The notes under the pieces were generated by a model that saw nothing but the letters and a program-made list of their open reading frames with translations, did no database searches and was not told where the DNA came from. A stretch of DNA of 39,997 bases from Bilabrum cf. latius. Taxonomy: Eukaryota. The translations under genes were made by a program, and so were the position numbers. The stretch lies in contig OZ237748.1 of assembly GCA_965178125.1 (NCBI GenBank), forward strand, positions 1,178,001-1,217,997. The letters run 5' to 3'. Below, in pieces: positions 6,795 through 39,997 of the stretch (positions are counted from its first letter, which is position 1; each line of letters starts with the position of its first letter).

Positions 6795-7339
6795 ACTGGT
6801 GGCAGACGCAACCTTGATTCTCGTGTGGTCGGCAAGCAGCAGTGCTCCCTGTGGGATGAAAACGCCCCCGTACCGGTGCAAGAGCAGCCCAGGAACGTGG
6901 CAACGGTCCTTTCTCTCGTGCTGGAGCCGAGCCACCAGCCTAGAACCGGCGCGATTTCACCAGCGGCGGCATCTCGCAGGAAGTTCCCATCGAGGGCCTG
7001 CTGCCGGACCCTCCCACGAGCTTCGGCAGCTCGCATGGGCTCCACCTCCTTGGCTTCCCACACGCCATTATAAGCAGCCATTGGATCCTCGTTCTGGAAG
7101 GACACTCGCAGGCGATCACAGGAAGGGGCGTCGCAGCCGCGGTACAGCGAGGCGTCAGGCATGCCCATGAAGGGGACTTCGTCCACTGGGCAATCCACAC
7201 ATTCAGAAGCGTCATCGTCTTTCGTGGAATCGAGACCGTCGCAGGTCTGCTCGCCCTCCGACTCGTCCTTGTCGGACAGCGGCTACCAGCTGCTTGCCTA
7301 CCCCGAGTCAGCCAGGATGTGGGTGTTGCGACCGATGGC
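6795..7339 (-). other. Inverted 545-bp coding segment of the protease gene
   Basis: The minus strand reads AIGRNTHILADSG*ASSW*PLSDKDESEGEQTCDGLDSTKDDDASECVDCPVDEVPF...RLRLPPV (asterisks are TAG). Flipping it joins 6246 to 7340 in frame. Confidence 0.8.
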
Positions 7340-17088: not shown

Positions 17089-17964
17089 TTTGTCTCGAAG
17101 GGATCGAGGAGGGCTGCAGCGAAGGCCAAACGGGCGCTCGCAAGGGCGGTCCGGGAGGACTTTGCCAGCCTGGCTGTAGGGGCAGCCGAAAACAACAACC
17201 TCGCCGTGGCGATCGCCAACGTCAAGGCAGGGTTGGCTCAGAACGGGCAGCAGGACGGGGTGCCGGCAGCGGGCGCCGGAGGGAACGTGAACGCTGACGC
17301 TCCCCAGGGGGAAATGGGTCCCCAGGGTGGAGCTTAGGTGGTTTAGGCCATTGCAGCTGAAGCGTGAAGTCTGGTAGGTCCCGGGCCCTCGTTCCAGATG
17401 TTTCTTCGTGATAGCGTGCGCTTTTGAGTTGAGTCCACAAAATATCAGATTCCCCCCCATTGATCTCATTAGAACCCCCCCATTGATCTCTCCGTTGCCG
17501 CCTAGCACCAGCACGTGCGCGGGGAACAGCGTGTGTACCACACTATGTACTCACGGGTCATGCAGGACCACTCAAGGATCCTCGATTTTGTCTCGAAGGG
17601 ATCGAGGAGGGCTGCAGCGAAGGCCAAACGGGCGCTCGCAAGGGCGGTCCGGGAGGACTTCGCCAGCCTGGCTGTAGGGGCAGCCGAAAACAACAACCTC
17701 GCCGTGGCGATCGCCAACGTCAAGGCAGGGTTGGCTCAGAACGGGCAGCAGGACGGGGTGCCGGCAGCGGGCGCCGGAGGGAACGTGAACGCTGACGCTC
17801 CCCAGGGGGAAATGGGTCCCCAGGGTGGAGCTTAGGTGGTTCAGGCCATTGCAGCTGAAGCGTGAAGTCTGGTAGGTCCCGGGCCCTCGTTCCAGATGTT
17901 TCTTCGTGATAGCGTGCGCTTTTGAGTTGAGTCCACAAAATATCAGATCCCCCCCCATTGATCT
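17089..17964 (+). repeat. Direct duplication of 378 bp (17089-17466 and 17587-17964) carrying the 3' end of an ORF plus trailer; probable element remnant
   Basis: Offset 498 bp; three substitutions seen (17163, 17344, 17451). Encodes FVSKGSRRAAAK...GGA*VV(*/Q)AIAAEA followed by TGA. Confidence 0.85.
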
Positions 17965-23157: not shown

Positions 23158-23427
23158 GAGACCACAACAAAAAGAATTCAAGACGATCTGTCAGTCCTGA
23201 GCTCTTCCACCCCGAATGGAGGCGATTGACTGGAGAAATGCCAACCTCCACTCTTCGTGGCCTGCCTCTTCCGTTAATCAGATTACGATGTCTAACGCTA
23301 CAATTCCTCTTCCCACCTACGGACAAGGTGTTGCGGCGTTCTCCTTCTTCGCAGAGCCATCCTCATCGCACAGACGCTTATCATCTCATTTGACGTCAAC
23401 AACGAATCAGACTCTGTCTCCTTAATA
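22414..23427 (-). mobile_element. 1014-bp retroelement-like insertion: about 240-bp terminal repeat followed by a truncated ORF
   Basis: Flanked by the 7-bp direct repeat CCATGAA (22407-22413, 23428-23434). TPR coding stops and resumes at its edges. 23187-23258 recurs at 1-72. Confidence 0.7.
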
Positions 23428-25674
23428 CCATGAAGCTGAAAGGCTTCGGATCACCTACCACTCCTTCCTGTCGGACGACAGCGCACAGAGCATCCACAGC
23501 CTCAAGCGATTGCTCAAAACGTAGAACAAGCTGCTTGGCCCGAGACATCCTGATTGCGCTCGCAGTCTCATCGATATCGGGCAGGCGTACGCCGATCTGT
23601 CCAAGAACGAGATTGCGCTGCGATGGCTGACGAGCGGAGCGCACGTCCGCCGGACAGCACTAGGCCCCAACGCATGGTAGCACGCGCACGACACGTTGAT
23701 TGTTGCATCCGGCCTGCGCTAGCTAGGAGGCAATGCAGAAGCGATTGCCGAGGTGAGAAGAGCCTGCTCTCTGAGCAGCAGCGCGTGGGGCGGCAAGCGA
23801 CTCAGGCGGTGCAGGTTCGTGGCCAGAGCAAGCCAGTTGCTGTGCGAGCTTGGAGACTGTGATATGGCGGCAAAGCTCGCCACAGAGAGTTATCATGCCA
23901 TAAAGGGCAAATTGGGCCCATCCTCGCCACTCTCCGCCACGTAGCTGAAAGCAGCAAGCAACAGCCTGTTGCAGGCAAAGAAGGGCGAGTTGGCTCTGGA
24001 GCTCACAAGCAAGGCGACTAAAGCTCTGCAAGATAGCACCAATGATTCGGCACCTGGCTAGGGTCTGGCGCTTGCCCAGTGCTACGGTGTACATGCAGCG
24101 TGCTTGCGGGAGCTAGGCCAGAACGAAGACGCGCTTCAATCCGACTTGCACGTCGTTGATCGGCTGGATTCGATCCGAAAATCAAAGGCAAGTAGCCGCA
24201 ACGATTGCGAAGCGGACATACTCCGGTGGGCAGAGGCTGCATATCGGCTCGCGCAGGAAGGCTTCGAAGCAAAGGGTGATTTTGAGAGCGCTCTGGCGCT
24301 GTGCCGCAGGATCCTCGACTTCGTTGCGCATCCAGGGGCATTACGCTGCGCCAGCCGCTGCCTGCGGGCGCGTGAGCAGGCCGACATGGCTGCTGAGCTG
24401 GAGGAGGAGTTTAGCTACTTGCTCGAAGAAAGTGATGACGACAGGTCGGGTGGTCTAGGGCGTGGAGGCAGCGTGACAGAGTCGAGCGATGAAGGCAGCC
24501 AGGCAAGTGATGCAAGTGATGCGAGCGAAGAAAGCGATGCCTGGCTGCGCAAGTGCGTGTCACCCAGCAGCGTCCCACTCGTGAGCGAATTCCAAGCCCA
24601 TGCAGCGATCGGTGACGCTGCAGACGAGGCCCTCGAATGTGGACAGGTCCATGAAAGCAGAAACAGCGTCGGCCCAGTTGGCGCTGGTGCCCGCGACGGT
24701 GGCCATGAGGAGGGCGCACGTGATCCTGCATACTCCGCGATTGCACTGGACGCAGCACTCGAAGCCGGTGCAGCAGATACGTTCGAATCGACCACAGACA
24801 GCTCCTCTAGACTCAGTTGCGTGGCGTCAATCAACAAGGAGGGAGAGGCTGCTGCCGGAATGTCCTTGCCGGTGGCAGAACCAGATACCTCGGAGTCTAG
24901 CTCAGACTCGGATAGCGATATGTCGGATGTATTCTGACGCATCGGGTCAATAAAAGAAAGAAATGGGGTTATTGGTTTGTTGCTGCGATCCCTTCACCTA
25001 ATCACACGTGTTAGAGCTTTCCAAGGAGTTACAGCATTTCTCGTGCAGCGGTTAGATGTTGGCGAAATGCAAATAGCGCCGGTTGCACAAAATTTTCAAC
25101 AAGATCCGTTAGCGTGACTAATCTAAACGTCACTGGAAAAAAACAACCTAAAATTTGTCCTCAATAGTTAGCGGCGGCAGCGATGCACAAAGGAAGCCAC
25201 GAAAAATATACAAAAGGGTTAGGTTTAGGGGTTAGCCCTAAGTCATGGTGGACACCGTGATCCGGATCATGACAGGGATCACTGACAACGAGACCCGCAC
25301 CATCCATGTGGATCGTGAGCACAGGGCTAGCCACCCGGTTACCTGCCCTGCCTCTGCCAGCGCGGTATTTGGTCCAAGCCGCCCTCCCGCCCCCTAGGCC
25401 CCGCTCCCCTGCTAGCTGTTTGCTGCTTGCTTTGTCGGTAAGAACTAGGCTGTGACAACCTCGGTAATGTGCGGTACACGACTAGATCTTACCCCTGCAA
25501 GATCGCATCCTGATTGAGCGCAGTCGACCAAGAGACAAATTAATGCTGCCTGGATTATGAAGTCTGTCATTTATGCTGCTAGCCGTTTTGGTCAGTTGTA
25601 GGCTATACCTCTATTTAGCTTCTATCTGAGATATATACATTCTAGCCATATCATATAAGGTGCCCACCTCCAAC

Positions 25675-25849
25675 CTGCCAACCATAACACTGCGCTTGCA
25701 ACCTCATCCATGGCGCTCACCTACGCCCTGCCAACTATCACACTACGCCTGCAACCTCATCCACGGCGTCCACTTCCGTTCTACCAACTATCACACTACG
25801 CCTCCAACTTCATCCACGGCACTCACCTGCGCCCTGCCAACCAACACAC
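25675..25849. repeat. 53-bp minisatellite, about 3.3 diverged copies
   Basis: Units starting CT(G/A)CCAAC at 25675, 25728, 25781 and 25834, abutting the first telomeric tract. Confidence 0.85.
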
Positions 25850-25850
25850 A

Positions 25851-26681
25851 GGGGGTTTAGGGGTTTAGGGGGGGGGTTAGGGGTTAGGGTTAGGGTTAGG
25901 GTTAGGGTTAGGGTTAGGGTTAGGGTTAGGGTTAGGGTTAGGGTTAGGGTTAGGGTTAGGGTTAGGGTTAGGGTTAGGGTTAGGGTTAGGGTTAGGGTTA
26001 GGGTTAGGGTTAGGGTTAGGGTTAGGGTTAGGGTTAGGGTTAGGGTTAGGGTTAGGGTTAGGGTTAGGGTTAGGGTTAGGGTTAGGGTTAGGGTTAGGGT
26101 TAGGGTTAGGGTTAGGGTTAGGGTTAGGGTTAGGGTTAGGGTTAGGGTTAGGGTTAGGGTTAGGGTTAGGGTTAGGGTTAGGGTTAGGGTTAGGGTTAGG
26201 GTTAGGGTTAGGGTTAGGGTTAGGGTTAGGGTTAGGGTTAGGGTTAGGGTTAGGGTTAGGGTTAGGGTTAGGGTTAGGGTTAGGGTTAGGGTTAGGGTTA
26301 GGGTTAGGGTTAGGGTTAGGGTTAGGGTTAGGGTTAGGGTTAGGGTTAGGGTTAGGGTTAGGGTTAGGGTTAGGGTTAGGGTTAGGGTTAGGGTTAGGGT
26401 TAGGGTTAGGGTTAGGGTTAGGGTTAGGGTTAGGGTTAGGGTTAGGGTTAGGGTTAGGGTTAGGGTTAGGGTTAGGGTTAGGGTTAGGGTTAGGGTTAGG
26501 GTTAGGGTTAGGGTTAGGGTTAGGGTTAGGGTTAGGGTTAGGGTTAGGGTTAGGGTTAGGGTTAGGGTTAGGGTTAGGGTTAGGGTTAGGGTTAGGGTTA
26601 GGGTTAGGGTTAGGGTTAGGGTTAGGGTTAGGGTTAGGGTTAGGGTTAGGGTTAGGGTTAGGGTTAGGGTTAGGGTTAGGG
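25851..26681 (+). repeat. Telomeric (TTAGGG)n tract 1, interstitial
   Basis: Perfect TTAGGG repeats with irregular first units. Confidence 0.98.
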
Positions 26682-26743
26682 TATCTAATATAAAGTCAGG
26701 GACAGGGTCGAGGAAAAAATATTTTCATCTTCATTTTTTGCAT
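26682..26743. repeat. Conserved telomere-junction leader, copy 1
   Basis: TATCTAATATAAAGTCAGGGACAGGGTCG...TTTTCATCTTCA.TTTTTG recurs at 29101 and 38078, each directly after TTAGGG. Confidence 0.9.
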
Positions 26744-27820
26744 CAAAATACGGAATTGAGATCTCGGCAACCAGAGTAGATATGAAGATGATTCAAACTG
26801 CATTGGGTCGGTCCTGGGGCACAACATGGGGCAAAATTTTATTAGGATCCGTTTTTGTCGCGCGGCGCCGATATGGCCGGATGAAGAATTTCGTGGACCA
26901 AAATACGGAATTGAGATCTCGGCAACCAGAGTAGATATGAAGATGATTCAAACTGCATTGGGTCGGTCCTGGGGCACAACATGGGGCAAAATTTTATTAG
27001 GATCCGTTTTTGTCGCGCGGCGCCGATATGGCCGGATGAAGAATTTCGTGGACCAAAATACGGAATTGAGATCTCGGCAACCAGAGTAGATATGAAGATG
27101 ATTCAAACTGCATTGGGTCGGTCCTGGGGCACAACATGGGGCAAAATTTTATTAGGATCCGTTTTTGTCGCGCGGCGCCGATATGGCCGGATGAAGAATT
27201 TCGTGGACCAAAATACGGAATTGAGATCTCGGCAACCAGAGTAGATATGAAGATGATTCAAACTGCATTGGGTCGGTCCTGGGGCACAACATGGGGCAAA
27301 ATTTTATTAGGATCCGTTTTTGTCGCGCGGCGCCGATATGGCCGGATGAAGAATTTCGTGGACCAAAATACGGAATTGAGATCTCGGCAACCAGAGTAGA
27401 TATGAAGATGATTCAAACTGCATTGGGTCGGTCCTGGGGCACAACATGGGGCAAAATTTTATTAGGATCCGTTTTTGTCGCGCGGCGCCGATATGGCCGG
27501 ATGAAGAGTTTCGTGGACCAAAATACGGAATTGAGATCTCGGCAACCAGAGTAGATATGAAGATGATTCAAACTGCATTGGGTCGGTCCTGGGGCACAAC
27601 ATGGGGCAAAATTTTATTAGGATCCGTTTTTGTCGCGCGGCGCCGATATGGCCGGATGAAGAATTTCGTGGACCAAAATACGGAATTGAGATCTCGGCAA
27701 CCAGAGTAGATATGAAGATGATTCAAACTGCATTGGGTCGGTCCTGGGGCACAACATGGGGCAAAATTTTATTAGGATCCGTTTTTGTCGCGCGGCGCCG
27801 ATATGGCCGGATGAAGAATT
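26744..27820. repeat. 155-bp satellite, subfamily A, about 7 copies
   Basis: Period 155 (ORF starts 26826, 26981, 27136...); copies are nearly identical. Confidence 0.97.
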
Positions 27821-28068
27821 GCTTGTCTCTGTAGAATGCATTGTGGATTCGTCAATTGTAGAATGGGTATTGTGTACATGACCGTTGTATTCGATTGATG
27901 GATTGCTTTGACTTAAGGTATTCATCGGCTGACAGCCAAGACTAAACAGAATGCCTCTTGGCTCCTACTATTCCGTCCTAACGGGTCACTGGCTGGCACT
28001 TTGGCAAGCTCCTCTCACAAGCTGGCCCAGCTGCCACTGACCTCAATTGCCATCCGCCTGGCTGCTTT

Positions 28069-28266
28069 TCACTCGTCATCGGAGGAGGGTTCCGCACCGA
28101 CAGCTGCCAGGAGCGCCTCCACAGCGTCCACGTCTGCCGCATTGAGATCTCCTTCCGCCGTCTTCTCGAGGGCCGTCATCAGGTCTGCGAGCATGCCCAA
28201 TCCGTGGTCCCTCTCTGCAATTGTTTCCTGCACGTCCTCGACCATGTCGTCGACAGTCCGGCTGAC
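28069..28266 (-). pseudogene. 5'-truncated paralog (last about 65 codons) of the 33594-35129 gene, capped by telomeric repeats
   Basis: 27916-28266 aligns to 33441-33791. Reads VSRTVDDMVEDVQETIAERDHGLGMLADLMTALEKTAEGDLNAADVDAVEALLAAVGAEPSSDDE then TGA. Confidence 0.9.
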
Positions 28267-29100
28267 TTAGGGTAAGGGTTAGGGTTAGGGTTAGGGTTAG
28301 GGTTAGGGTTAGGGTTAGGGTTAGGGTTAGGGTTAGGGTTAGGGTTAGGGTTAGGGTTAGGGTTAGGGTTAGGGTTAGGGTTAGGGTTAGGGTTAGGGTT
28401 AGGGTTAGGGTTAGGGTTAGGGTTAGGGTTAGGGTTAGGGTTAGGGTTAGGGTTAGGGTTAGGGTTAGGGTTAGGGTTAGGGTTAGGGTTAGGGTTAGGG
28501 TTAGGGTTAGGGTTAGGGTTAGGGTTAGGGTTAGGGTTAGGGTTAGGGTTAGGGTTAGGGTTAGGGTTAGGGTTAGGGTTAGGGTTAGGGTTAGGGTTAG
28601 GGTTAGGGTTAGGGTTAGGGTTAGGGTTAGGGTTAGGGTTAGGGTTAGGGTTAGGGTTAGGGTTAGGGTTAGGGTTAGGGTTAGGGTTAGGGTTAGGGTT
28701 AGGGTTAGGGTTAGGGTTAGGGTTAGGGTTAGGGTTAGGGTTAGAATTAGGGTTAGGGTTAGGGTTAGGGTTAGGGTTAGGGTTAGGGTTAGGGTTAGGG
28801 TTAGGGTTAGGGTTAGGGTTAGGGTTAGGGTTAGGGTTAGGGTTAGGGTTAGGGTTAGGGTTAGGGTTAGGGTTAGGGTTAGGGTTAGGGTTAGGGTTAG
28901 GGTTAGGGTTAGGGTTAGGGTTAGGGTTAGGGTTAGGGTTAGGGTTAGGGTTAGGGTTAGGGTTAGGGTTAGGGTTAGGGTTAGGGTTAGGGTTAGGGTT
29001 AGGGTTAGGGTTAGGGTTAGGGTTAGGGTTAGGGTTAGGGTTAGGGTTAGGGTTAGGGTTAGGGTTAGGGTTAGGGTTAGGGTTAGGGTTAGGGTTAGGG
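28267..29100 (+). repeat. Telomeric (TTAGGG)n tract 2, interstitial
   Basis: Perfect repeats except TAAGGG near the start and TTAGAA at 28741. Confidence 0.98.
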
Positions 29101-29161
29101 TATCTATTATAAAGTCAGGGACAGGGTCGGGGAAAAATATTTTCATCTTCACTTTTTGACA
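29101..29161. repeat. Conserved telomere-junction leader, copy 2
   Basis: Near-identical to 26682-26743 and 38078-38139. Confidence 0.9.
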
Positions 29162-30813
29162 AAATCCTGCGGGATACGATCTCGGCAACCACAGGAGATA
29201 TGAAGACCGTTCAAATTGCGTTGGGACGGCCTAGGGCCACATCATTGGCCAAATGTTCCTCAGGTTCCGCTTTTGACGCGCGGCGCCAATATTGGGCCTT
29301 GAAGATTTTCATGCTGAAATCCTGCGGGATACGATCTCGGCAACCACAGGAGATATGAAGACCGTTCAAATTGCGTTGGGACGGCCTAGGGCCACAACAT
29401 TGGCCAAATGTTCCTCAGGTTCCGCTTTTGACGCGCGGCGCCAATATTGGGCCTTGAAGATTTTCATGCTGAAATCCTGCGGGATACGATCTCGGCAACC
29501 ACAGGAGATATGAAGACCGTTAAAATTGCATTGGGACGGCCTAGAGCCACATCATTGGCCAAATGTTCCTCAGGTTCCGCTTTTGACGCGCGGCGCCAAT
29601 ATTGGGCCTTGAAGATTTTCATGCTGAAATCCTGCGGGATACGATCTCGGCAACCACAGGAGATATGAAGACCGTTCAAATTGCGTTGGGACGGCCTAGG
29701 GCCACATCATTGGCCAAATGTTCCTCAGGTTCCGCTTTTGACGCGCGGCGCCAATATTGGGCCTTGAAGATTTTCATGCTGAAATCCTGCGGGATACGAT
29801 CTCGGCAACCACAGGAGATATGAAGACCGTTCAAATTGCGTTGGGACGGCCTAGAGCCACATCATTGGCCAAATGTTCCTCAGGTTCCGCTTTTGACGCG
29901 CGGCGCCAATATTGGGCCTTGAAGATTTTCATGCTGAAATCCTGCGGGATACGATCTCGGCAACCACAGGAGATATGAAGACCGTTCAAATTGCGTTGGG
30001 ACGGCCTAGGGCCACATCATTGGCCAAATGTTCCTCAGGTTCCGCTTTTGACGCGCGGCGCCAATATTGGGCCTTGAAGATTTTCATGCTGAAATCCTGC
30101 GGGATACGATCTCGGCAACCACAGGAGATATGAAGACCGTTCAAATTGCGTTGGGACGGCCTAGAGCCACATCATTGGCCAAATGTTCCTCAGGTTCCGC
30201 TTTTGACGCGCGGCGCCAATATTGGGCCTTGAAGATTTTCATGCTGAAATCCTGCGGGATACGATCTCGGCAACCACAGGAGATATGAAGACCGTTCAAA
30301 TTGCGTTGGGACGGCCTAGGGCCACAACATTGGCCAAATGTTCCTCAGGTTCCGCTTTTGACGCGCAGCGCCAATATTGGGCCTTGAAGATTTTCATGCT
30401 GAAATCCTGCGGGATACGATCTCGGCAACCACAGGAGATATGAAGACCGTTCAAATTGCGTTGGGACGGCCTAGGGCCACATCATTGGCCAAATGTTCCT
30501 CAGGTTCCGCTTTTGACGCGCGGCGCCAATATTGGGCCTTGAAGATTTTCATGCTGAAATCCTGCGGGATACGATCTCGGCAACCACAGGAGATATGAAG
30601 ACCGTTAAAATTGCATTGGGACGGCCTAGGGCCACATCATTGGCCAAATGTTCCTCAGGTTCCGCTTTTGACGCACGGCGCCAATATTGGGCCTTGAAGA
30701 TTTTCATGCTGAAATCCTGCGGGATACGATCTCGGCAACCACAGGAGATATGAAGACCGTTCAAATTGCGTTGGGACGGCCTAGGGCCACAACATTGGCC
30801 AAATGTTCCTCAG
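29162..30813. repeat. 155-bp satellite, subfamily B, about 10.7 copies
   Basis: Period 155; shares GATCTCGGCAACCA, AGATATGAAGA, TTCAAA and CGCGCGGCG blocks with subfamilies A and C. Confidence 0.97.
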
Positions 30814-30849
30814 ATTCATTGTACTTCATTCAGTGCAAGTATGGCGTAT

Positions 30850-33331
30850 TGAAACCTACTCGGGGGAGGTTTCAAAACCTACCCAGGGCGGTTTCAAAAC
30901 CTACCCAGGGCGGTTTCAAAACCTACCCAGGGCGGTTTCAAAACCTACCCAGGGCGGTTTCAAAACCTACCCAGGGCGGTTTCAAAACCTACCCAGGGCG
31001 GTTTCAAAACCTACCCAGGGCGGTTTCAAAACCTACCCAGGGCGGTTTCAAAACCTACCCAGGGCGGTTTCAAAACCTACCCAGGGCGGTTTCAAAACCT
31101 ACCCAGGGCGGTTTCAAAACCTACCCAGGGCGGTTTCAAAACCTACCCAGGGCGGTTTCAAAACCTACCCAGGGCGGTTTCAAAACCTACCCAGGGCGGT
31201 TTCAAAACCTACCCAGGGCGGTTTCAAAACCTACCCAGGGCGGTTTCAAAACCTACCCAGGGCGGTTTCAAAACCTACCCAGGGCGGTTTCAAAACCTAC
31301 CCAGGGCGGTTTCAAAACCTACCCAGGGCGGTTTCAAAACCTACCCAGGGCGGTTTCAAAACCTACCCAGGGCGGTTTCAAAACCTACCCAGGGCGGTTT
31401 CAAAACCTACCCAGGGCGGTTTCAAAACCTACCCAGGGCGGTTTCAAAACCTACCCAGGGCGGTTTCAAAACCTACCCAGGGCGGTTTCAAAACCTACCC
31501 AGGGCGGTTTCAAAACCTACCCAGGGCGGTTTCAAAACCTACCCAGGGCGGTTTCAAAACCTACCCAGGGCGGTTTCAAAACCTACCCAGGGCGGTTTCA
31601 AAACCTACCCAGGGCGGTTTCAAAACCTACCCAGGGCGGTTTCAAAACCTACCCAGGGCGGTTTCAAAACCTACCCAGGGCGGTTTCAAAACCTACCCAG
31701 GGCGGTTTCAAAACCTACCCAGGGCGGTTTCAAAACCTACCCAGGGCGGTTTCAAAACCTACCCAGGGCGGTTTCAAAACCTACCCAGGGCGGTTTCAAA
31801 ACCTACCCAGGGCGGTTTCAAAACCTACCCAGGGCGGTTTCGAAACCTACCCAGGGCGGTTTCAAAACCTACCCAGGGCGGTTTCAAAACCTACCCAGGG
31901 CGGTTTCAAAACCTACCCAGGGCGGTTTCAAAACCTACCCAGGGCGGTTTCAAAACCTACCCAGGGCGGTTTCAAAACCTACCCAGGGCGGTTTCAAAAC
32001 CTACCCAGGGCGGTTTCAAAACCTACCCAGGGCGGTTTCAAAACCTACCCAGGGCGGTTTCAAAACCTACCCAGGGCGGTTTCAAAACCTACCCAGGGCG
32101 GTTTCAAAACCTACCCAGGGCGGTTTCAAAACCTACCCAGGGCGGTTTCAAAACCTACCCAGGGCGGTTTCAAAACCTACCCAGGGCGGTTTCAAAACCT
32201 ACCCAGGGCGGTTTCAAAACCTACCCGGGGCGGTTTCAAAACCTACCCAGGGCGGTTTCAAAACCTACCCAGGGCGGTTTCAAAACCTACCCAGGGCGGT
32301 TTCAAAACCTACCCAGGGCGGTTTCAAAACCTACCCAGGGCGGTTTCAAAACCTACCCAGGGAGGTTTCAAAACCTACCCAGGGAGGTTTCAAAACCTAC
32401 CCAGGGAGGTTTCAAAACCTACCCAGGGCGGTTTTTCAAAACCTACCCAGGGAGGTTTCAAAACCTACCCAGGGAGGTTTCAAAACCTACCCAGGGAGGT
32501 TTCAAAACCTACCCAGGGCGGTTTCAAAACCTACCCAGGGCGGTTTCAAAACCTACCCAGGGCGGTTTCAAAACCTACCCAGGGCGGTTTCAAAACCTAC
32601 CCAGGGCGGTTTCAAAACCTACCCAGGGCGGTTTCAAAACCTACCCAGGGCGGTTTCAAAACCTACCCAGGGCGGTTTCAAAACCTACCCAGGGCGGTTT
32701 CAAAACCTACCCAGGGCGGTTTCAAAACCTACCCAGGGCGGTTTCAAAACCTACCCAGGGCGGTTTCAAAACCTACCCAGGGCGGTTTCAAAACCTACCC
32801 AGGGCGGTTTCAAAACCTACCCAGGGCGGTTTCAAAACCTACCCAGGGAGGTTTCAAAACCTACCCAGGGAGGTTTCAAAACCTACCCAGGGAGGTTTCA
32901 AAACCTACCCAGGGAGGTTTCAAAACCTACCCAGGGAGGTTTCAAAACCTACCCAGGGAGGTTTCAAAACCTACCCAGGGCGGTTTCAAAACCTACCCAG
33001 GGCGGTTTCAAAACCTACCCAGGGCGGTTTCAAAACCTACCCAGGGCGGTTTCAAAACCTACCCAGGGCGGTTTCAAAACCTACCCAGGGCGGTTTCAAA
33101 ACCTACCCAGGGCGGTTTCAAAACCTACCCAGGGAGGTTTCAAAACCTACCCAGGGCGGTTTCAAAACCTACCCAGGGAGGTTTCAAAACCTACCCAGGG
33201 AGGTTTCAAAACCTACCCAGGGAGGTTTCAAAACCTACCCAGGGAGGTTTCAAAACCTACCCAGGGAGGTTTCAAAACCTACCCAGGGAGGTTTCAAAAC
33301 CTACCCAGGGAGGTTTGAAACCTACCCTAGG
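30850..33331. repeat. 22-bp tandem array GGTTTCAAAACCTACCCAGGG(C/A), roughly 110 copies
   Basis: Head-to-tail units with no spacers; the 22-aa periodicity of the spurious ORFs equals three units. Confidence 0.97.
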
Positions 33332-33593
33332 TGTGGGTTTGGGAATCCAGTGGTTATTGACCGATATTCAATGTTGTGGCTCGTTCTACGTAGCCATATG
33401 TATGCGTTAACCTCCTTGGTCGATACATCGCTTTGACATCAGGTATTCGTTGGCTTATAGTCAAGACTAAATAGATTGCGTCCTGGCTCCTACTATCCCG
33501 TCCTAACGGGTCACTGGCTGGCACTCTGGCAAGCTCCTCTCACAAGCTGGCCCAGCTGCCACTGACCTCAATTGGTATCCGCCTGGCTGCTTT

Positions 33594-35129
33594 TCACTCG
33601 TTATCGGAGGAGGGTTCCGCATCGACAGCTGCCAGGAGCGCCTCAACAGCGTCCACGTCTGCTGCATTGAGATCTCCTTCCGCCGTCTTCTCGAGGGCCG
33701 TCATCAGGCCTACGAGCGTGCCCAACCCGTCGTCCCTCTCTTGAATTGTTTCCTGCACGTCCTCGAGCATGTCGTCGAGAGTTCGGCTGACGCCCAGCGC
33801 TATGTCATCGCAGGCAGCGAGGATGCGGTCCACCAGGTGCCGCTGCTAGTCGGTGAAGCCGTTGTCATCCACTCCACCGTCGTTCTCAGAGTCGTCTTGC
33901 TGGTTCTGGGCCTCGTTCTCTTCTTCCTCATCCAGCTCGTCCTGATCCTCCTCGTCCTGCTGCACGAGTTCTATCGGAGCCTCATCCTCGTCCTCTTCAT
34001 CGGCTGCGTCTGCGTGGTATCGATCACCGATCTCCTCTTCATCCTCCTCAGAGTCCTGTCGAGGCAGTGATGCTGCTGCTCCACTCCTTGCGCCTCTTGC
34101 TCCCCTCTTGTCCTGGCCAACGGCGTGGCGAGCTCCTCCGCCATAGCCCGGTTGGAGAATGGGCGATCGCTTGTGCTGTATCTTAGCCCGAGGTGCCGCT
34201 TCAGTCGCCTTCCTGCGCTCCGGTTCTGCCGGTTGCGCACCTTCATCCCTCGGCTTTCCCTTTGACTTTCCCTTTGACTTGCCCGCGGCCTTGGTCCTGG
34301 CCTTCAATTTGGCCTTTGCCTTTTCCCTGGCCTTGGCCTCCGCTCTCCGCTTGGGGCCGAGTAGGTCGTTGTTCAGTCGCTCGGTCTATGAGTCGCTGGA
34401 CTCTGAGCCGTCTGAATCTTGCTCGCCTCGTTTCCTCTGGGCCTTGTAGGCACTGTGGTCCGCGACACCGTCGTCGGGGTCGTCCTCGTCGTCGTCGACC
34501 ATGGCACTCCGTTTGTCCTTGCCAGCACGGGGTGCTCCACTCGGCGAAGCAGCAGCGGCTCCCGCAGAAGCATCTTGGTCCCCTGCGGCTGCCGCGGCAG
34601 AGTCCTTGACTGCCATGTCAAACACGTCTTGGAACACAGCCTGCATGCCTCCACGCGCACGCACAGAGGCTTTCCCAGCTCCGTAGTCGCAGACGAACTT
34701 GATCGCGGTCTTGTAGTTCCTCCGCAAGCCATCCATGCCTGCCTTGAACCAAGGATTGTGGCTGGTAGAGTAGCCGCTGTCGCGCAGGCCCATGAGCATC
34801 TAATTCATCTTGCGGTAGCCTGGCGAGCTGGTGCCGCTAGTTGATGCAGCCGGATATAGGCGGTGACTCAGCACCTTCAGCATGTCAGGCGGCAGATCGG
34901 ACTCATTCAGGTCCAGCATGGCATCCACGCAGGCTTTGATGCCCTCTTTCTTGGTCCCCTAGTAGTGCTCGGTAGACCCGCAGAGTAACCCGCAATCTTG
35001 GTGGAGGCCCACGAGGGAGATCAGCAGGACTTGCTTGGCAGCAGACGTGCTGACGCCTGAAGCCAGGGCAGCCACGACGGGGCGGGAGGCCTTGGTGTGC
35101 TTGACGCTGTAGCTCTTTGCGGCGGCCAT
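33594..35129 (-). CDS. Hypothetical 511-aa protein: helical N-terminal domain, basic Lys/Ala region, acidic region, coiled-coil-like C-terminus
   Basis: ATG at 35129 (MAAAKSYSVKH...). Four in-frame TAGs (34959, 34800, 34386, 33846) join ORFs 34959-35291, 34386-34799, 33846-34307 and 33594-33833; ends at TGA. A paralogous fragment at 28069-28266 keeps the frame. Confidence 0.85.
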
Positions 35130-35357
35130 AGTACTCTGCGGTGCTGGGGGAACACGGGTAAGGCCACGAACAGGCGCTTGGATGCGGCAGCGAACACGGA
35201 CATGAGACCCAGGGAGTCTCCAGGGCAAGCTCGAGGGCAAAGAAAAAGAAGGCCACGACCCCGCGCACTCGGTCTCAGACCCGGGACCCATGATGTTAGG
35301 TCGATCCCCCAGTCGTGGGGGGGCGGACCCCAGCCCAGAAAAAAATTAAAAAAGATC

Positions 35358-35436
35358 GCCCCAACGGGAATCGAACCTCGGGGGTAGGCCTGGGTGCGAT
35401 TACCAACCGTACGCAATACCACTACACCACCACAGC
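35358..35436 (-). promoter_or_regulatory. tRNA-derived sequence with Pol III A and B boxes and an oligo-T terminator; cloverleaf degenerate
   Basis: Minus strand GCTGTGG-TGGTGTAGTGG(A box)...GGTTCGATTCC(B box)CGTTGGGGC, followed by TTTTTT. Acceptor, anticodon and T stems pair poorly. Confidence 0.55.
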
Positions 35437-35580
35437 AACCCACGCGAAACCGAAAAAAAAATACAGATTCGCATCAAAAGTGCACGCAACTTGCACTTGT
35501 CACGCCGAAACCTACCCGTTCACCCAACGAGCAGCGCGAAATCAGAAACACTCATATTGCGCTCCTTGTATTCAATTGCA

Positions 35581-35695
35581 GAGGGTTAGGGATTAGGGTT
35601 AGGGTTAGGGTTAGGGTTAGGGTTAGGGTTAGGGTTAGGGTTAGGGTTAGGGTTAGGGTTAGGGTTAGGGTTAGGGTTAGGGTTAGGGTTAGGGT
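35581..35695 (+). repeat. Telomeric (TTAGGG)n tract 3, short and interstitial
   Basis: About 19 units with one irregular unit near the start. Confidence 0.97.
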
Positions 35696-36010
35696 CAACG
35701 TGGTTCAGACGTTTGGCTCAATTGCGCGACGGCAAGCACTCGTTGGAACTAATCTCGCGCATATTATCAAATAATATAACATACTGCAAACAATTGCGCG
35801 GCGATATATAGGCTGCGCGCCCAATGCTCACTTTGCTTGCGGCAGGTGTGCTGCGACAACATTTGTGGTGGCCCGGATCAGGTTGCGGAACCTGATGCGC
35901 GGCACCGCCGTGACGAGTGCGCCACCAGGGAACAACGCATCGTACCATCATACTAATCACATCCCAAGTATATTATATATCCTTGTGGCATCTCTGTCCG
36001 CAGTCTGGTC

Positions 36011-37753
36011 ATGGCGCAGTCCACGTACGACGCCACCAAGCATGTGAAGGCTCTCGACTACCTTCGGGCCTTCCTGGACCGCCGCGCGAAGGGCTACGCT
36101 CAGAACCCGCATCGCGTGCGCATCGGAGTCCCAGGGCCACTTCAACCAGGAGGTGCCGCCCTGCCTGGCCCGCCGGCCGGCGAGGCGCAGGCCCAGATCC
36201 CGGCCCAGGTGGGGCCAGCGCCAGGCGGCCATGCCGCCGGGGGGGGCGATGCGGCAGGCCTGCCGGCCCCCGCCCCAGCCATCGGCGAGCATGCTCCGGA
36301 GCCCCAGCACCAGCAGCAAGAGGGCGCCCACCAACCACCACCTGGTGCAGCTCTTGCTGCTGGCCAGCAGGCGATGGCCGCCGCCCCGCCCCAGCACCCC
36401 GCTGGTCCGGGTGCCAACCTGCCGGTCCCAGGAGGCTTGCAGCCCGAGCCGCCAGCTGGCGATGCCGACGCCTTCCTCCCGATCCCGGAGCCCCAGCAGG
36501 AGCCTGCAGGTGGGCCAGCCGGCGTCGGTCCGGCCCCTCCAGCAGCCGAGCAGCAGCCAGCTGCCCAGGCTGCCCAGCACCAACTCGTCCCTGGGCCCGT
36601 GCCTCTCGCCGAGGTGCCCGTCCTGGCCGGGGTCGGCGCAGGGGAGGACGCGATGGAGGACGACGAGCCCCCAGAAGCGGTCCAGGCCATCTTCCTCGGG
36701 CGCCAAGCCGCCCACGCGGCCACCCAGGCAGCTCGGCAGGCCATGGTCTGGGATGCTCAGGGCCAGCAGCCGCTCTTCGGGGCAGAGGGAGGAGCGCCCG
36801 AGCTGCCCATCCCCGGAGTCGTGTTCGCTGCCGGTGCAGAGGCAGCCGGCGCCCAAGGCGGTGGCGCAGGCCCAGACGCCGGAGGGGAGGTCGGTGCGCC
36901 ACCCGTGCAGGCGTGGAACCTGGTCGTCGGCGACCCGGGGGGAGCGCAGGGAGAGGAGGCCCTGGCCGTCAACCTCCCGCCCGAGTACCGGTTCGGCATG
37001 CACGAGGCGACGGACGACCTCGCGCAGCACCCCATGCTGGCCTACCACATATGGGAGGTGGACGACGAGGCGGTGCAGGCCCTGCAGGGCCTGCTGACCT
37101 GCGTTGGCAGGCAGGAGCTGCCTCCCGAGGTGTGGAGGGCGCTCGCACCTCCAGTGATGGAGACGGTGACCATGCAAGGCATGCGGCGCTGGTGGGCGTA
37201 CCAGAGGCGCGCCGTTGTCGTCGTGGACAGCCTCCTGCATGCCGAGACTGATGCTGCCGGCGTGGAGCAGCGCGCGCAGAGGCGCGGCCGCTTTCTCGTG
37301 CAGCTCGTTGGCTGGACTGACATCACCAAGATGCTGGAGAGCGAAGACCTGAACGAGGAAGGGGCTGCCTTCATTCGGAGCAAGCTGGCTTCGGTGGCGG
37401 TCAGCTTCTGGCCGTCTCCGATGCTGGCGGAGCCCGGGCTGCACAGCCACAAGCTCTCTCCGCTCCGCACGGAGTGGGATCACTACATCGAGTACAACCG
37501 CGTGGACGAGACGGTCTTTGACGCGGTCGGGCTCTCCGAGCAGCCTCCAGCGTTCGTGTACGAGGACGAGGACGAGGACGAGATGGAGGAGGGGCCGGCG
37601 GCGCAGCCGGCTGGGGCGGAGGAGCATGCAGAGGGCGACGAAGATGCCGGGTATGAGGCTGGAGAAGGCGAGTGGGGTGGGGAAGGCCAGTGGGACTCGG
37701 ACGGAGACCAAGGCGGCGACGAGGAAGCGGATGGTGGAGATCCTAGGGGTTTT
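36011..37753 (+). CDS. Hypothetical protein (580+ aa): Pro/Ala/Gly/Gln-rich region, helical domain, acidic tail; 3' end runs into telomeric repeats
   Basis: Long ORF with strong GC3 bias and ATG at 36011. The apparent stop is a TAG inside the telomeric tract. Confidence 0.8.
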
Positions 37754-38077
37754 TAGGGTTTAGGGTTAGGGTTAGGGTTAGGGTTAGGGTTAGGGTTAGG
37801 GTTAGGGTTAGGGTTAGGGTTAGGGTTAGGGTTAGGGTTAGGGTTAGGGTTAGGGTTAGGGTTAGGGTTAGGGTTAGGGTTAGGGTTAGGGTTAGGGTTA
37901 GGGTTAGGGTTAGGGTTAGGGTTAGGGTTAGGGTTAGGGTTAGGGTTAGGGTTAGGGTTAGGGTTAGGGTTAGGGTTAGGGTTAGGGTTAGGGTTAGGGT
38001 TAGGGTTAGGGTTAGGGTTAGGGTTAGGGTTAGGGTTAGGGTTAGGGTTAGGGTTAGGGTTAGGGTTAGGGTTAGGG
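37744..38077 (+). repeat. Telomeric (TTAGGG)n tract 4, interstitial
   Basis: Irregular first units (TAGGGG TTTTTAGGG TTTAGGG), then perfect repeats. Confidence 0.98.
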
Positions 38078-38139
38078 TATCTAATATAAAGTCAGGGACA
38101 GGGTCGGGGAAAAAAAATTTTCATCTTCACTTTTTGTCG
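38078..38139. repeat. Conserved telomere-junction leader, copy 3
   Basis: Near-identical to the leaders at 26682 and 29101. Confidence 0.9.
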
Positions 38140-38859
38140 AAAAAATGCGCGCGACGATCTCGGCAACCACAGGAGATATGAAGACCGTTCAAACTGCATC
38201 GGGACGGCCTGGGACCACAACTGGGGGCAAATGTTCCCCAGGTTCCGTTTATACCGCGCGGCGACAATATGGCTGGACGAAGATTGTCATGCAGAAAAAA
38301 TGCGCGCGGCGATCTCGGCAACCAGATGAGATATGAAGACCGTTCAAACTGCATCGGGACGGCCTGGGACCACAACTGGGGGCAAATGTTCCCCAGGTTC
38401 CGTTTATTCCGCGCGGCGACAATATGGCTGGACGAAGATTGTCATGCAGAAAAAATGCGCGCGACGATCTCGGCAACCAGATGAGATATGAAGACCGTTC
38501 ATACTGCATCGGGACGGCCTGGGGGTACAATGTGGGGCAAATGTTCCCCAGATTCCGTTTTGACCGCGCGGCGACAGTATGGGGGGACGAAGATTTTCAG
38601 GCAGAAAAAATGCGCGCGGCGATCTCGGCAACCACAGGAGATATGAAGACCGTTCAAACTGCATCGGGACGGCCTGGGACCACAACAGGGGGCAAATGTT
38701 CCCCAGGTTCCGTTTATACCGCGCGGCGACAGTATGGTGGGACGAAGATTGTCATGCAGAAAAAATGCGCGCGGCGATCTCGGCAACCAGATGAGATATG
38801 AAGACCGTTCAAACTGCATCGGGACGGCCTGGGACCACAACTGGGGGCAAATGTTCCCC
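38140..38859. repeat. 155-bp satellite, subfamily C, about 4.6 copies
   Basis: Period 155; more internal variation than A or B. Confidence 0.95.
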
Positions 38860-39156
38860 GTGATTCTATTACATCAAGCATTGCAAGTATGGGGTTTGCA
38901 CACCTACATGGTTGGGTTTGCATACGTACATGGGTTCGGGTTAGGTAAGAGGTTTTCCTTAGGGGCGTTCATTAGCTGTAAATGAGATTTCTTGATTTCA
39001 GCCGTTCATTCGCACTTTGAGTCATCATCATGTGTCATGTGTGCGAAGTTTGGAGAATGGCTGGCACACAGCTCTCGAGCAATCGAGCAATACAAGTAAG
39101 TGCTCATCTGGTCGGCGCCACGCCCACAGTGACTGGGTGACTGGCGATCTTCATTA

Positions 39157-39395
39157 ATGTCAGAAAACCAAGTACCGTAAATGATACAGTGCAATAATGC
39201 AAACTCATGAATCAGCAAATCGAATTTGCAACTCCCCCACAAAGGGGCAAGGCTAGGAATAGGGTGTATGTCATATACCGGCGAGAGGAGGTTGGCCCCG
39301 AAAATTGGGTGGATTTTTTAATCATGTCAGAAAACCAAGTACCGTAAATGATACAGTGCAATAATGCAAACTCATGAATCAGCAAATCAAATTTG
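39157..39395. repeat. 72-bp direct repeat (39157-39228, 39324-39395), one mismatch
   Basis: ATGTCAGAAAACCAAGTACCG...CAAATC(G/A)AATTTG twice; the second copy is cut by the telomeric tract. Confidence 0.9.
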
Positions 39396-39997
39396 GTTTG
39401 GTTTAGGGTTAGGGTTAGGGTTAGGGTTAGGGTTAGGGTTAGGGTTAGGGTTAGGGTTAGGGTTAGGGTTAGGGTTAGGGTTAGGGTTAGGGTTAGGGTT
39501 AGGGTTAGGGTTAGGGTTAGGGTTAGGGTTAGGGTTAGGGTTAGGGTTAGGGTTAGGGTTAGGGTTAGGGTTAGGGTTAGGGTTAGGGTTAGGGTTAGGG
39601 TTAGGGTTAGGGTTAGGGTTAGGGTTAGGGTTAGGGTTAGGGTTAGGGTTAGGGTTAGGGTTAGGGTTAGGGTTAGGGTTAGGGTTAGGGTTAGGGTTAG
39701 GGTTAGGGTTAGGGTTAGGGTTAGGGTTAGGGTTAGGGTTAGGGTTAGGGTTAGGGTTAGGGTTAGGGTTAGGGTTAGGGTTAGGGTTAGGGTTAGGGTT
39801 AGGGTTAGGGTTAGGGTTAGGGTTAGGGTTAGGGTTAGGGTTAGGGTTAGGGTTAGGGTTAGGGTTAGGGTTAGGGTTAGGGTTAGGGTTAGGGTTAGGG
39901 TTAGGGTTAGGGTTAGGGTTAGGGTTAGGGTTAGGGTTAGGGTTAGGGTTAGGGTTAGGGTTAGGGTTAGGGTTAGGGTTAGGGTTAGGGTTAGGGT
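39396..39997 (+). repeat. Telomeric (TTAGGG)n tract 5, possibly the true chromosome end
   Basis: Perfect repeats to the window edge with the G-rich strand pointing outward. Confidence 0.97.

What the first reader, a model, noticed from the sequence alone, without database searches (positions are those of the whole stretch)
25851..39997. Chain of telomere-attached modules with a fixed proximal junction and telomerase-healed distal ends
Seen: three modules (26682-28266, 29101-35580, 38078-39395) begin with the same leader fused exactly as (TTAGGG)n-TATCTA, then a 155-bp satellite, and end at variable points capped by new TTAGGG. Module 1 is a truncated relative of module 2, cut inside the same minus-strand gene. 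Module 3 shares the post-satellite linker (TGCAAGTATGG..ACCTAC) with module 2. The gene's 3' end faces the centromere. Established: this polarity and 5' truncation characterise retroelements added to chromosome ends (Drosophila HeT-A/TART; endonuclease-lacking Penelope-like Athena/Terminon elements). Inference: an undescribed family of telomere-targeted, possibly non-autonomous elements. No reverse transcriptase is visible here, and recombination between subtelomeres is an alternative explanation.
Basis: partly seen in the sequence, partly recalled or inferred. Interest (0 to 1): 0.82.

Follow-up and report, generated by a model that had tools for sequence, protein, structure and literature searches.

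The report
Chromosome end built from telomere-capped blocks
One chromosome end carries a chain of related DNA blocks, each starting at the same base after a telomere tract and each cut short and re-capped with new telomere repeats, which records repeated breakage and re-extension and resembles known telomere-embedded repeats rather than a proven new mobile element.

Summary
Three modules (26682-28266, 29101-35581, 38078-39395) start with a ~60-bp leader joined as (TTAGGG)n|TATCTA in one register. Each continues into a 155-bp satellite and ends at a different point under a new telomere tract.

What I added:
- All five tracts begin with irregular repeats. All four that abut a module end in at least 17 perfect repeats. 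So each tract grew outward from a broken end.
- A fourth unit, X (35695-37744), is unrelated and carries a plus-strand gene cut at codon 578. A public protein 99% identical runs 158 residues further, so this is a true truncation.
- The modules have no room for a reverse transcriptase, no hammerhead ribozyme and no poly(A). Their main gene is decayed (4 nonsense codons), and m1 and m2 diverge about equally in leader, 3' UTR and coding sequence.
- Module 2 looks like ordinary subtelomeric DNA.

Best reading (0.5): blocks embedded in the telomere, like yeast Y', C. elegans TALT or MoTeR arrays, copied from internal telomere/leader junctions by recombination between rounds of breakage and telomerase healing. 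A non-autonomous telomere-primed retroelement stays open (0.28).

The genome-wide junction test failed: no genome is held, and the read tool masked the junction.

The parts
25851..26681 (+). T0: first telomere tract. It starts with 33 irregular nt (GGGGGTTTAGGGGTTTAGGGGGGGGGTTAGGGG), followed by 133 perfect TTAGGG.
26682..28266 (.). Module 1: leader 26682-26743; 155-bp satellite x6.9 at 26744-27820; then 81 bp of unaligned sequence (27821-27901); then the 3' UTR and the last 65 codons plus stop of ORF A (minus strand). Cut at 28266.
28267..29100 (+). T1: starts TTAGGG TAAGGG, 139 repeats in all, with one TTAGAA at 28741-28746.
29101..35581 (.). Module 2: leader 29101-29161; 155-bp satellite x10.7 at 29162-30817; linker; 22-bp palindromic minisatellite x112.5 at 30852-33327; then unique body. 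The distal end is ambiguous by 1-4 nt.
33593..35129 (-). ORF A: 511 codons, with in-frame TAG at codons 57, 110, 248 and 428, ending in TGA. No family, fold or homologue apart from an 87-aa fragment (P0001).
35354..35438 (-). Degenerate tRNA-Thr(GGT)-like sequence followed by a T-run. ARAGORN calls it only at 90% of its default thresholds.
35582..35694 (+). T2: short tract, (A)GGGTTAGGGA followed by 17 perfect repeats.
35695..37744 (+). Unit X: unrelated to the leader family. It has 316 bp of upstream sequence and a plus-strand ORF starting at 36011. Homology to the longer relative P0003 stops after codon 578 (…GGDP), where the new telomere begins.
37745..38077 (+). T3: starts AGGGGTTTTTAGGGT, followed by 53 perfect repeats.
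38078..39395 (.). Module 3: leader 38078-38138; 155-bp satellite x4.7 at 38139-38859 (93% matches); the linker shared with module 2; 2.2 copies of a 22-bp-like unit; then unique body, in which 39324-39395 repeats 39157-39228. Cut at 39395.
39396..39997 (+). T4: terminal tract. It starts GTTTGGT, followed by 99 perfect repeats, and runs off the contig.

Best explanation
This is a real chromosome end that records at least four rounds of one cycle.

1. Shown: the end is cut at an arbitrary point, and telomerase seeds a new tract on the non-telomeric stump. The first one to five repeats come out irregular.
2. Shown: the tract grows to a normal, perfectly regular telomere.
3. Inferred: its G-strand 3' end invades an internal telomere tract that lies just before a leader, at another chromosome end or on the sister chromatid. 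DNA synthesis then copies the leader, the satellite and the body outward. This would be break-induced replication, or unequal recombination within the tracts.
4. The new end is cut and healed again.

On this reading the leader family is a set of old, neutrally diverging subtelomeric paralogues, not a transcribed mobile element. The fixed junction is inherited and kept sharp by recombination. Unit X is a captured or co-copied gene fragment of the same kind as C. elegans TALT1.
For: - Direction of tract growth. 5 of 5 tracts start with irregular repeats. 4 of 4 tracts that abut a module end in at least 17 perfect repeats.
- X is truly truncated. P0003 matches X residues 405-578 at 172 of 174 and runs 158 residues further. 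P0004 matches X residues 1-369 at 359 of 369.
- X has the TALT1 structure: promoter plus 5' gene part between two tracts of the same orientation (PMC4595603, passages).
The two genes therefore very probably sit together elsewhere.
- Module 2 looks like ordinary DNA. It holds a decayed gene with 4 nonsense codons, a degenerate tRNA-like gene with a T-run and 4 kb of satellites.
- Divergence between m1 and m2 is about even. The leader differs at about 9.5% of positions, the 3' UTR at 16 of 167, and the coding part at 14 of 198. In the coding part, 9 changed codons alter the residue and 4 do not.
- The modules have no room for a reverse transcriptase. Rfam gives no hammerhead or tRNA match. The satellite and leader show no compensatory structure: covariation terms +1.41 and +1.68.
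- The same set of events is documented in MoTeR arrays: truncation with de novo telomere addition, BIR from other arrays, and capture of internal sequence (PMC7367193, passages).
- Yeast Y' tandems are often separated by internal telomere tracts of 20 to about 500 bp, in two cases 628 and 957 bp, and carry internal minisatellites and ORFs (PMC13177704, passages).
Against: - No donor locus was seen, and copying by DNA synthesis is inferred only.
- 3 of 3 leader junctions are in one register, with flawless repeats right up to the leader. A junction inherited passively at the family's ~9% divergence should have picked up changes in the adjoining repeats. This reading therefore needs frequent renewal, by clipping of the invading end at the junction.
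- ORF A has the polarity expected of an element primed from the telomere.
- The leader holds three telomere-like hexamers (TCAGGG ACAGGG TCGGGG) 14 nt from the junction. These recall the (NNNCCC)n tails of endonuclease-deficient Penelope-like elements (PMC8557442, figure legend).
- T0 and T1 are almost the same length (831 and 834 bp). Random-register invasion does not predict that.
- The ORF A-like fragment on the other contig is only 87% identical, against 97-99% for X. Simple block copying of A plus X therefore does not fit.
Confidence: 0.5

Rival explanations
1. A non-autonomous retroelement family primed from the telomere. A minus-strand RNA ending in ...CCCTGTCCCTGACTTTATATTAGATA, perhaps with a few CCCUAA at its tip, anneals to the G-strand overhang. 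A reverse transcriptase encoded elsewhere copies it (an endonuclease-deficient Penelope-like enzyme, a MoTeR-like enzyme, or telomerase itself). Reverse transcription stops early, giving 5'-truncated copies that telomerase then caps. Recombination may shuffle the copies later, as in MoTeR arrays.
For: - Same register at 3 of 3 junctions, with perfect repeats up to the leader.
- Variable distal ends capped by new tracts.
- ORF A points its 3' end toward the centromere.
- The three modules share only the proximal tail and differ further out, as non-autonomous partners of a 3'-end-specific enzyme do.
- Telomere-like hexamers lie near the would-be RNA 3' end.
- Many leader variants in run X1: 15 contigs at one variant site.
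- T0 and T1 have nearly equal lengths, as if the module was added to telomeres at their set length.
- MoTeR, FoTeR and Athena show the same polarity.
Against: - No reverse transcriptase and no gag-like ORF anywhere in 14 kb. ORF A and the X ORF match no Pfam family.
- No hammerhead ribozyme at Rfam E up to 5.
- No poly(A).
- No covariation-supported RNA structure.
- The leader is not conserved above the 3' UTR.
- The body contains a pol III-type tRNA-like gene with its terminator.
- X cannot be explained this way without an antisense RNA.
- The internal tracts are 19-139 repeats long. FoTeR 3' junctions carry about 3-8 repeats. The longest inter-MoTeR tract cited carries 18.
Confidence: 0.28
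2. A sub-hypothesis, compatible with the best explanation. Module 2 and X are one block (29101-37744). T2 is not an old chromosome end. It is a short telomere insertion laid down by telomerase at an internal double-strand break and then sealed by end joining.
For: - T2 is by far the shortest tract: 19 repeats against 54-139.
- An ORF A-like gene and X very probably share one 12766-bp contig elsewhere.
- ORF A and X form a divergent gene pair about 770 bp apart once T2 is removed.
- Insertion of telomere repeats at internal breaks is described for mammals (PMC2246262; I saw only the search listing and the start of the abstract).
Against: - The other contig could not be read, so it is unknown whether a tract lies between the two genes there.
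- Divergence is unequal: ORF A 87% against X 97-99%.
Confidence: 0.3
3. An assembly artefact: reads from different chromosome ends were joined through identical telomere tracts.
For: - No read or contig spanning a tract could be examined. Only contigs were laid, and the tool masked the telomere part.
- Tracts of 0.3-0.8 kb of perfect repeat are hard to assemble.
- The T0/T1 length match is odd.
Against: - All tracts have the same orientation, so any join still needs real internal tract-to-leader junctions. Two true chromosome ends would meet head to head, and the window has no CCCTAA run.
- The three modules differ from one another by 8-26%, so they are not one collapsed copy.
- Each distal junction has its own irregular start.
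- Runs from a second coded organism hold the leader and the m1-type and m2-type satellites.
Confidence: 0.07
4. A Helitron-like rolling-circle DNA transposon with a fixed 5' end (A|TC...) and a bypassed 3' end.
For: The leader reads TA|TCTAATATA, which recalls Helitron 5' ends. That motif is recalled from memory, not from any call.
Against: - No Rep/helicase ORF.
- No CTRR end or 3' hairpin.
- The base before TC is not part of a regular telomere repeat.
- Every distal end lies under an irregular new telomere start rather than a resumed repeat.
Confidence: 0.02

Closest known systems
Saccharomyces cerevisiae Y' elements (PMC13177704, passages)
   Same: Blocks of several kb at chromosome ends, arranged head to tail and often separated by internal telomere tracts (20 to about 500 bp, in two cases 628 and 957 bp). 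They carry an internal minisatellite and ORFs. They are spread and amplified by recombination and BIR.
   Different: Both ends of a Y' element are fixed. That study found none of its 15 short Y' elements interrupted by a telomere sequence. Here every module is cut at a different point and healed. There is no sequence or protein similarity, and no helicase here.
C. elegans TALT1/TALT2, the 'template for ALT' (PMC4595603, passages)
   Same: A block of ordinary genomic DNA between two telomere tracts of the same orientation, arranged in tandem inside telomeres. TALT1 is a promoter plus a first exon. Unit X matches this description closely.
   Different: TALT spread was seen in survivors lacking telomerase. 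Here telomerase is evidently active, because tracts are seeded on non-telomeric ends. TALT units are identical copies, whereas these are diverged paralogues with variable ends.
Magnaporthe MoTeR and Fusarium FoTeR arrays (PMC7367193, passages; PMC12857005, abstract and section 19)
   Same: The element's 3' end is fixed to telomere repeats on the centromere side. Copies are 5'-truncated and capped by de novo telomere. Arrays are remodelled by breaks in the internal tracts, by healing, by BIR and by capture of other sequence. Variable tandem repeats lie inside the elements.
   Different: MoTeR1 and FoTeR encode a reverse transcriptase; nothing here does. Their internal tracts are short: 3-8 repeats at FoTeR 3' ends, and 18 in the longest inter-MoTeR tract cited. 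Here they are 19-139 repeats.
Endonuclease-deficient Penelope-like elements: Athena, Coprina, Terminons (PMC8557442, passages)
   Same: They attach to G-rich overhangs and are restricted to chromosome ends. Short (NNNCCC)n stretches lie near the 3' end. The leader has three NNNGGG hexamers on the G-strand, so it works like these in outline.
   Different: No PLE reverse transcriptase and no hammerhead ribozyme were found. The hexamers lie 14 nt from the junction and are not true telomere repeats.
Drosophila HeT-A/TART (PMC5537684, search listing only; details recalled)
   Same: Head-to-tail arrays at chromosome ends, with the 3' end facing the centromere and variable 5' ends. HeT-A lacks its own reverse transcriptase.
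   Different: Drosophila has no telomerase repeats between elements. Its elements end in poly(A) and encode Gag (recalled). Neither feature is present here.

Membership tests
Endonuclease-deficient Penelope-like elements (Athena/Coprina/Terminon) | PLE-type reverse transcriptase ORF | tested here: not met
   Unique sequence in the modules is 446, 2254 and 536 bp, and 1537 bp of the 2254 is ORF A. ORF A and the X ORF match no Pfam family at E up to 5, apart from one meaningless EBNA2 hit at E 1.6. Only these two module ORFs were scanned. The other module ORFs are translations of repeats.
Endonuclease-deficient Penelope-like elements (Athena/Coprina/Terminon) | Hammerhead ribozyme motif next to the 3' end | tested here: not met
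   Rfam gave 0 matches at gathering score over the whole window. At E up to 5 over 26600-39450 it gave 45 matches. 43 are miRNA-precursor models and one is a viral CRE model; these 44 all lie on the 22-bp array. The other match is Fibro-purF, inside X. None is a hammerhead.
Endonuclease-deficient Penelope-like elements (Athena/Coprina/Terminon) | Reverse-complement telomeric repeats at the element's 3' end | tested here: inconclusive
   The leader abuts the tract directly, so repeats belonging to an RNA cannot be told from the telomere. Three telomere-like hexamers lie 14 nt inside the leader.
[quoted passage not shown] | Reverse transcriptase and/or Gag ORF in at least the autonomous member | tested here: not met
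   None in the window. An autonomous partner elsewhere in the genome could not be sought, because no genome is held.
[quoted passage not shown] | 3' end toward the centromere, joined to telomere repeats; 5'-truncated copies capped by telomere | tested here: met
   DNA-level copying from an internal tract predicts the same pattern.
[quoted passage not shown] | Poly(A) at the 3' junction (HeT-A/TART, TRAS/SART; this feature is recalled) | tested here: not met
   The junction reads GGG|TATCTAAT, with no T-run on the G-strand.
Recombination-spread blocks embedded in telomeres (Y', TALT) | Block of genomic DNA between telomere tracts of one orientation, head to tail at a chromosome end | tested here: met
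   Four blocks between five tracts, all G-strand on the plus strand, and no CCCTAA run.
Recombination-spread blocks embedded in telomeres (Y', TALT) | Both block ends fixed between copies | tested here: not met
   The proximal end is fixed in 3 of 3 leader modules. The distal ends all differ.
Recombination-spread blocks embedded in telomeres (Y', TALT) | Spread depends on homologous recombination/BIR; the same block with the same ends is found at several chromosome ends | not testable with these tools
   No genome is held. The read tool masked the junction.
Helitron | RepHel ORF, 5'-TC ... CTRR-3' ends with a 3' hairpin, insertion between A and T | tested here: not met
   Only a TC-like start is present. 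There is no 3' end, no hairpin and no Rep/helicase. The motifs are recalled.

The most novel reading that the evidence does not exclude
The leader-satellite family is a non-autonomous retroelement of an unidentified protist-like eukaryote. It has no endonuclease and no ORF of its own. It is copied straight onto full-length telomere 3' ends by a reverse transcriptase supplied in trans, either a telomerase relative or telomerase itself switching template. Each copy is then re-capped by telomerase. In that case the chromosome end is maintained by telomerase and retrotransposition in alternation.
Probability: 0.25. Interest if true: 0.8.

Novelty: new member of a known kind. Interest (0 to 1): 0.5.

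Why it matters
The end is a layered record. Five telomere tracts each show which way they grew, and four blocks each show where they were cut. At least four rounds of loss, healing and re-extension can therefore be read from one sequence, in an organism that clearly has active telomerase.

Very long, perfect internal telomere tracts (up to 139 repeats) are reported to be fragile in fungi and yeast. A genome that tolerates chains of them is a natural test case for how internal tracts are kept stable or turned over.

If the addition step proves to be RNA-templated, this would be a telomere-primed element with no gene of its own, outside animals and fungi. If it is DNA-templated, it is a wild, telomerase-positive counterpart of Y'/TALT amplification. 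That process is mostly known from telomerase-negative survivors.

Tried and rejected
- Junction census by reads. The tool skipped 38048-38084, which is the telomere part plus the first 7 nt of the leader. Whether the leader always follows TTAGGG was therefore not tested. Run X8 laid nothing and X6 laid only 33 nt. One 539-nt contig of X2 carries 61 letters upstream of 38085. If these contigs are built from 31-letter words (recalled), those 61 letters cannot all be perfect repeat. I could not see them.
- Expression: no RNA holder was listed.
- Leader in metagenomes: one exact 22-nt hit, L001, with unrelated coding-like flanks and no TTAGGG. I take it as chance.
- X relative in viral contigs: none.
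- ORF A: no homologue of similar length, no Pfam family, no solved relative and no Atlas lead. The single-sequence AlphaFold model has mean pLDDT 42 and is unusable, so I ran no fold search. P0002 (E 1.5e-06, 29% identity, a repetitive protein) was not followed up.
- X ORF: no Pfam family and no Atlas lead.
The only hint is a weak gametolysin M11 match.
- RIP as the cause of the four TAG codons. The 30 differences between m1 and m2 are 15 C/T transitions, 3 A/G transitions and 12 transversions, with no CpA bias. Rejected.
- TAG read as an amino acid. The 1136-codon and 581-codon ORFs contain no in-frame TAG. Unlikely.
- Conserved RNA structure in the satellite or leader. 2 of 34 and 4 of 52 pairs show compensatory change, and both covariation terms are unfavourable. 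No support, but only three subfamilies were available.
- The miRNA hits on the 22-bp array are artefacts of its palindromic unit.
- One paper search failed on term syntax and was replaced by other searches.
- Supplementary files of the MoTeR, FoTeR and TALT papers were not seen. They hold the junction tables that would sharpen the comparison.
- Prior description. Six searches turned up no paper describing this family. The family has no name to search for, so this is weak evidence.

Full report
**What is there**

The last 14 kb of the window is a eukaryotic chromosome end. The G-strand (TTAGGG)n is on the plus strand and runs off the contig. The script found five G-strand tracts and no run of two or more CCCTAA anywhere.

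Between the tracts lie four blocks:
- m1, 26682-28266
- m2, 29101-35581
- X, 35695-37744
- m3, 38078-39395

The three m blocks begin with a leader of about 60 bp joined as ...TTAGGG|TATCTA(A/T)TATAAAGTCAGGGACAGGGTCG, in the same register each time. The 22-nt core occurs 3 times in the window and 0 times in each of 100 shuffles.

Each leader runs into a 155-bp satellite, of 6.9, 10.7 and 4.7 units. The start of the array is at the same phase in all three modules. The m2 and m3 arrays also end at the same phase and share a linker.

Satellite consensus units are 74-80% alike between modules. Within m1 and m2 the units are 98-99% alike. Leaders are 90-92% alike.

m1 ends inside the same minus-strand ORF that m2 carries whole: 27902-28266 matches 33427-33791 at 91.8% over 365 bp.

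**Direction of events**

Every tract starts irregularly:
- T0: GGGGGTTTAGGGGTTTAGGGGGGGGGTTAGGGG
- T1: TTAGGG TAAGGG
- T2: GGTTAGGGA
- T3: AGGGGTTTTTAGGGT
- T4: GTTTGGT

Every tract that abuts a block ends in at least 17 flawless repeats. That is 5 of 5 irregular starts against 4 of 4 perfect ends. It is what telomerase seeding on a non-telomeric stump, followed by normal elongation, would leave. It means each block was added to a mature telomere 3' end. This step rests on the sequence directly.

**The fourth block**

It matches nothing else in the window. It holds 316 bp of upstream sequence and a plus-strand ORF that runs into T3.

Two public proteins match it:
- P0004: 359 of 369 identical over residues 1-369.
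- P0003: 172 of 174 identical over residues 405-578, continuing for 158 more residues.

The window copy is therefore a genuine 3' truncation, healed after the codons for ...GGDP.

P0003, P0004 and P0001 are each singletons from one source, and each is recorded on a contig of the same length, 12766. P0001 is an 87-aa fragment 87% identical to the first 78 residues of ORF A. They very probably share that contig, but I could not read it.

X has the structure described for C. elegans TALT1: a promoter and first exon between two internal telomere tracts of one orientation (PMC4595603, passages).

**Is it a retroelement?**

Features that fit:
- The fixed junction.
- The variable capped ends.
- The polarity of ORF A.
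- Three telomere-like hexamers in the leader. These recall the (NNNCCC)n tails of endonuclease-deficient Penelope-like elements (PMC8557442, passages).

Tests that failed:
- The unique sequence in the modules (446, 2254 and 536 bp) leaves no room for a reverse transcriptase.
- ORF A has four in-frame TAG codons. It has no family, no solved relative and no homologue of similar length.
- Rfam finds nothing at gathering score. At E up to 5 it finds 45 weak matches. 44 lie on the palindromic 22-bp array and one lies in X. None is a hammerhead or a tRNA.
- There is no poly(A) at the junction.
- Between m1 and m2 the leader differs at about 9.5% of positions, the 3' UTR at 16 of 167, and the coding part at 14 of 198. 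In the coding part, 9 changed codons alter the residue and 4 do not. Nothing marks the leader or the ORF as being under constraint.
- RNAalifold gives unfavourable covariation terms for the satellite and the leader.
- m2 carries a degenerate tRNA-Thr-like gene with a T-run, and it is followed by a gene of the opposite polarity.

Taken together, m2 looks like ordinary subtelomeric DNA.

**What related data added**

No genome is held.

The m2 body is held by coded runs of several coded organisms. The shares of its sampled words are 0.86, 0.82, 0.54 and 0.27.

I laid contigs of X1, X2, X6 and X8 on 38048-38300:
- X1: 285 contigs. 15 of them carry a T at 38116, with a summed depth of 150054 out of 157400.
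- X2: 13 contigs.
- X6: 1 contig, covering 33 nt.
- X8: none.

The loose ends show m1-type and m2-type satellite units in X1 and X2, and at least one further subtype. The family is therefore multi-copy and not private to this contig.

The tool masked 38048-38084. The key test, whether the leader always follows TTAGGG, was not made.

**Reading**

I place 0.5 on DNA-templated addition. In this reading the healed telomere invades an internal tract in front of a leader elsewhere and copies outward, and the end is then cut and healed again. All these events are documented in MoTeR arrays (PMC7367193, passages) and Y' arrays (PMC13177704, passages).

Points against this reading:
- The flawless repeats right up to each leader.
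- The common register.
- The near-equal lengths of T0 and T1 (831 and 834 bp).

I keep 0.28 on a non-autonomous telomere-primed retroelement. I put 0.07 on an assembly artefact. An artefact is unlikely because joins of the same orientation still need real tract-to-leader junctions.

A compatible sub-hypothesis (0.3) is that T2 is a telomerase insertion at an internal break, so that m2 and X form one block.

**Comparison and novelty**

In outline this works like Y'/TALT blocks and like MoTeR/FoTeR/Athena arrays. It fails the defining tests for the retroelement families (no reverse transcriptase, no hammerhead ribozyme, no poly(A)). It differs from Y'/TALT in having variable, healed distal ends. 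Its internal tracts are also much longer than those reported for FoTeR 3' junctions (about 3-8 repeats).

I rate it a new member of a known kind. It is a sequence family with no database relatives, in an unnamed eukaryote.

Six paper searches found no description of it. The family has no name to search for, so that is weak evidence. Supplementary tables of the cited papers were not available.

Noticed in passing
window 25851-26681 and 28267-29100: T0 and T1 are almost the same length (831 and 834 bp), while T3 is 333 bp and T2 is 113 bp. This may reflect a tight telomere set length at the moment of block addition. It is unexplained.
   Followed up: no
window 35354-35438 (-): Degenerate tRNA-Thr(GGT)-like sequence with A/B-box-like motifs, followed by TTTTTTAATTTTTTT. 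ARAGORN misses it at default settings and Rfam misses it too. ARAGORN calls it at 90% thresholds. It lies upstream of ORF A inside module 2.
   Followed up: partly
window 33593-35129 (-): All four in-frame stops of ORF A are TAG, and the ORF ends in TGA. The relative P0001 has K at the first of these positions. The m1/m2 substitution spectrum is not RIP-like. Two long ORFs in the window contain no TAG.
   Followed up: partly
window 30852-33327: A 22-bp minisatellite of 112.5 copies whose unit is an inverted repeat (GAAACC...GGTTTC), with two variants (GGGCGG and GGGAGG) arranged in blocks. It causes spurious miRNA-precursor matches in Rfam. Module 3 has only about 2 diverged copies at the same place.
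   Followed up: partly
window 26744-27820, 29162-30817, 38139-38859: Despite 20-26% divergence between the three satellite subfamilies, two blocks are nearly invariant: GATCTCGGCAACCA..AG.AGATATGAAGA and CGCGCGGCG. These are possible protein-binding or promoter sites.
   Followed up: no
window 25674-25849: A 53-bp C-rich tandem repeat (3.3 copies, 80% matches) lies directly before the first telomere tract. It is probably the native subtelomeric edge of this chromosome.
   Followed up: no
window 28741-28746: A single TTAGAA variant lies in the middle of T1, between 77 and 59 perfect repeats. It is the only internal variant in any tract.
   Followed up: no
window 1-72 and 23187-23258; 793-1080 and 6247-6534; 1205-1453 and 6546-6794; 17089-17466 and 17587-17964: Other repeats in the chromosome-internal part: a perfect 72-bp inverted pair 23 kb apart, two dispersed direct duplications (98-99% identical), and a tandem duplication of about 500 bp.
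   Followed up: no
window 3251-3856 (+) and 7161-10571 (+): An ORF with an HEIGHNFGVEH zinc-protease motif and a weak gametolysin M11 match (E 7.7e-06). Also an uninterrupted 1136-codon cysteine-rich ORF with teneurin-type EGF matches and no homologue in the large protein collection.
   Followed up: partly
window 39157-39228 and 39324-39395: A 72-bp direct repeat 167 bp apart in module 3. The second copy ends exactly at the telomere junction. It is probably the start of a 167-bp tandem array cut by the break.
   Followed up: no
L001 1119-1140: An exact 22-nt match to the leader core in a 1258-bp metagenome contig with unrelated, coding-like flanks and no telomere repeat. I take it as a chance match.
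   Followed up: yes
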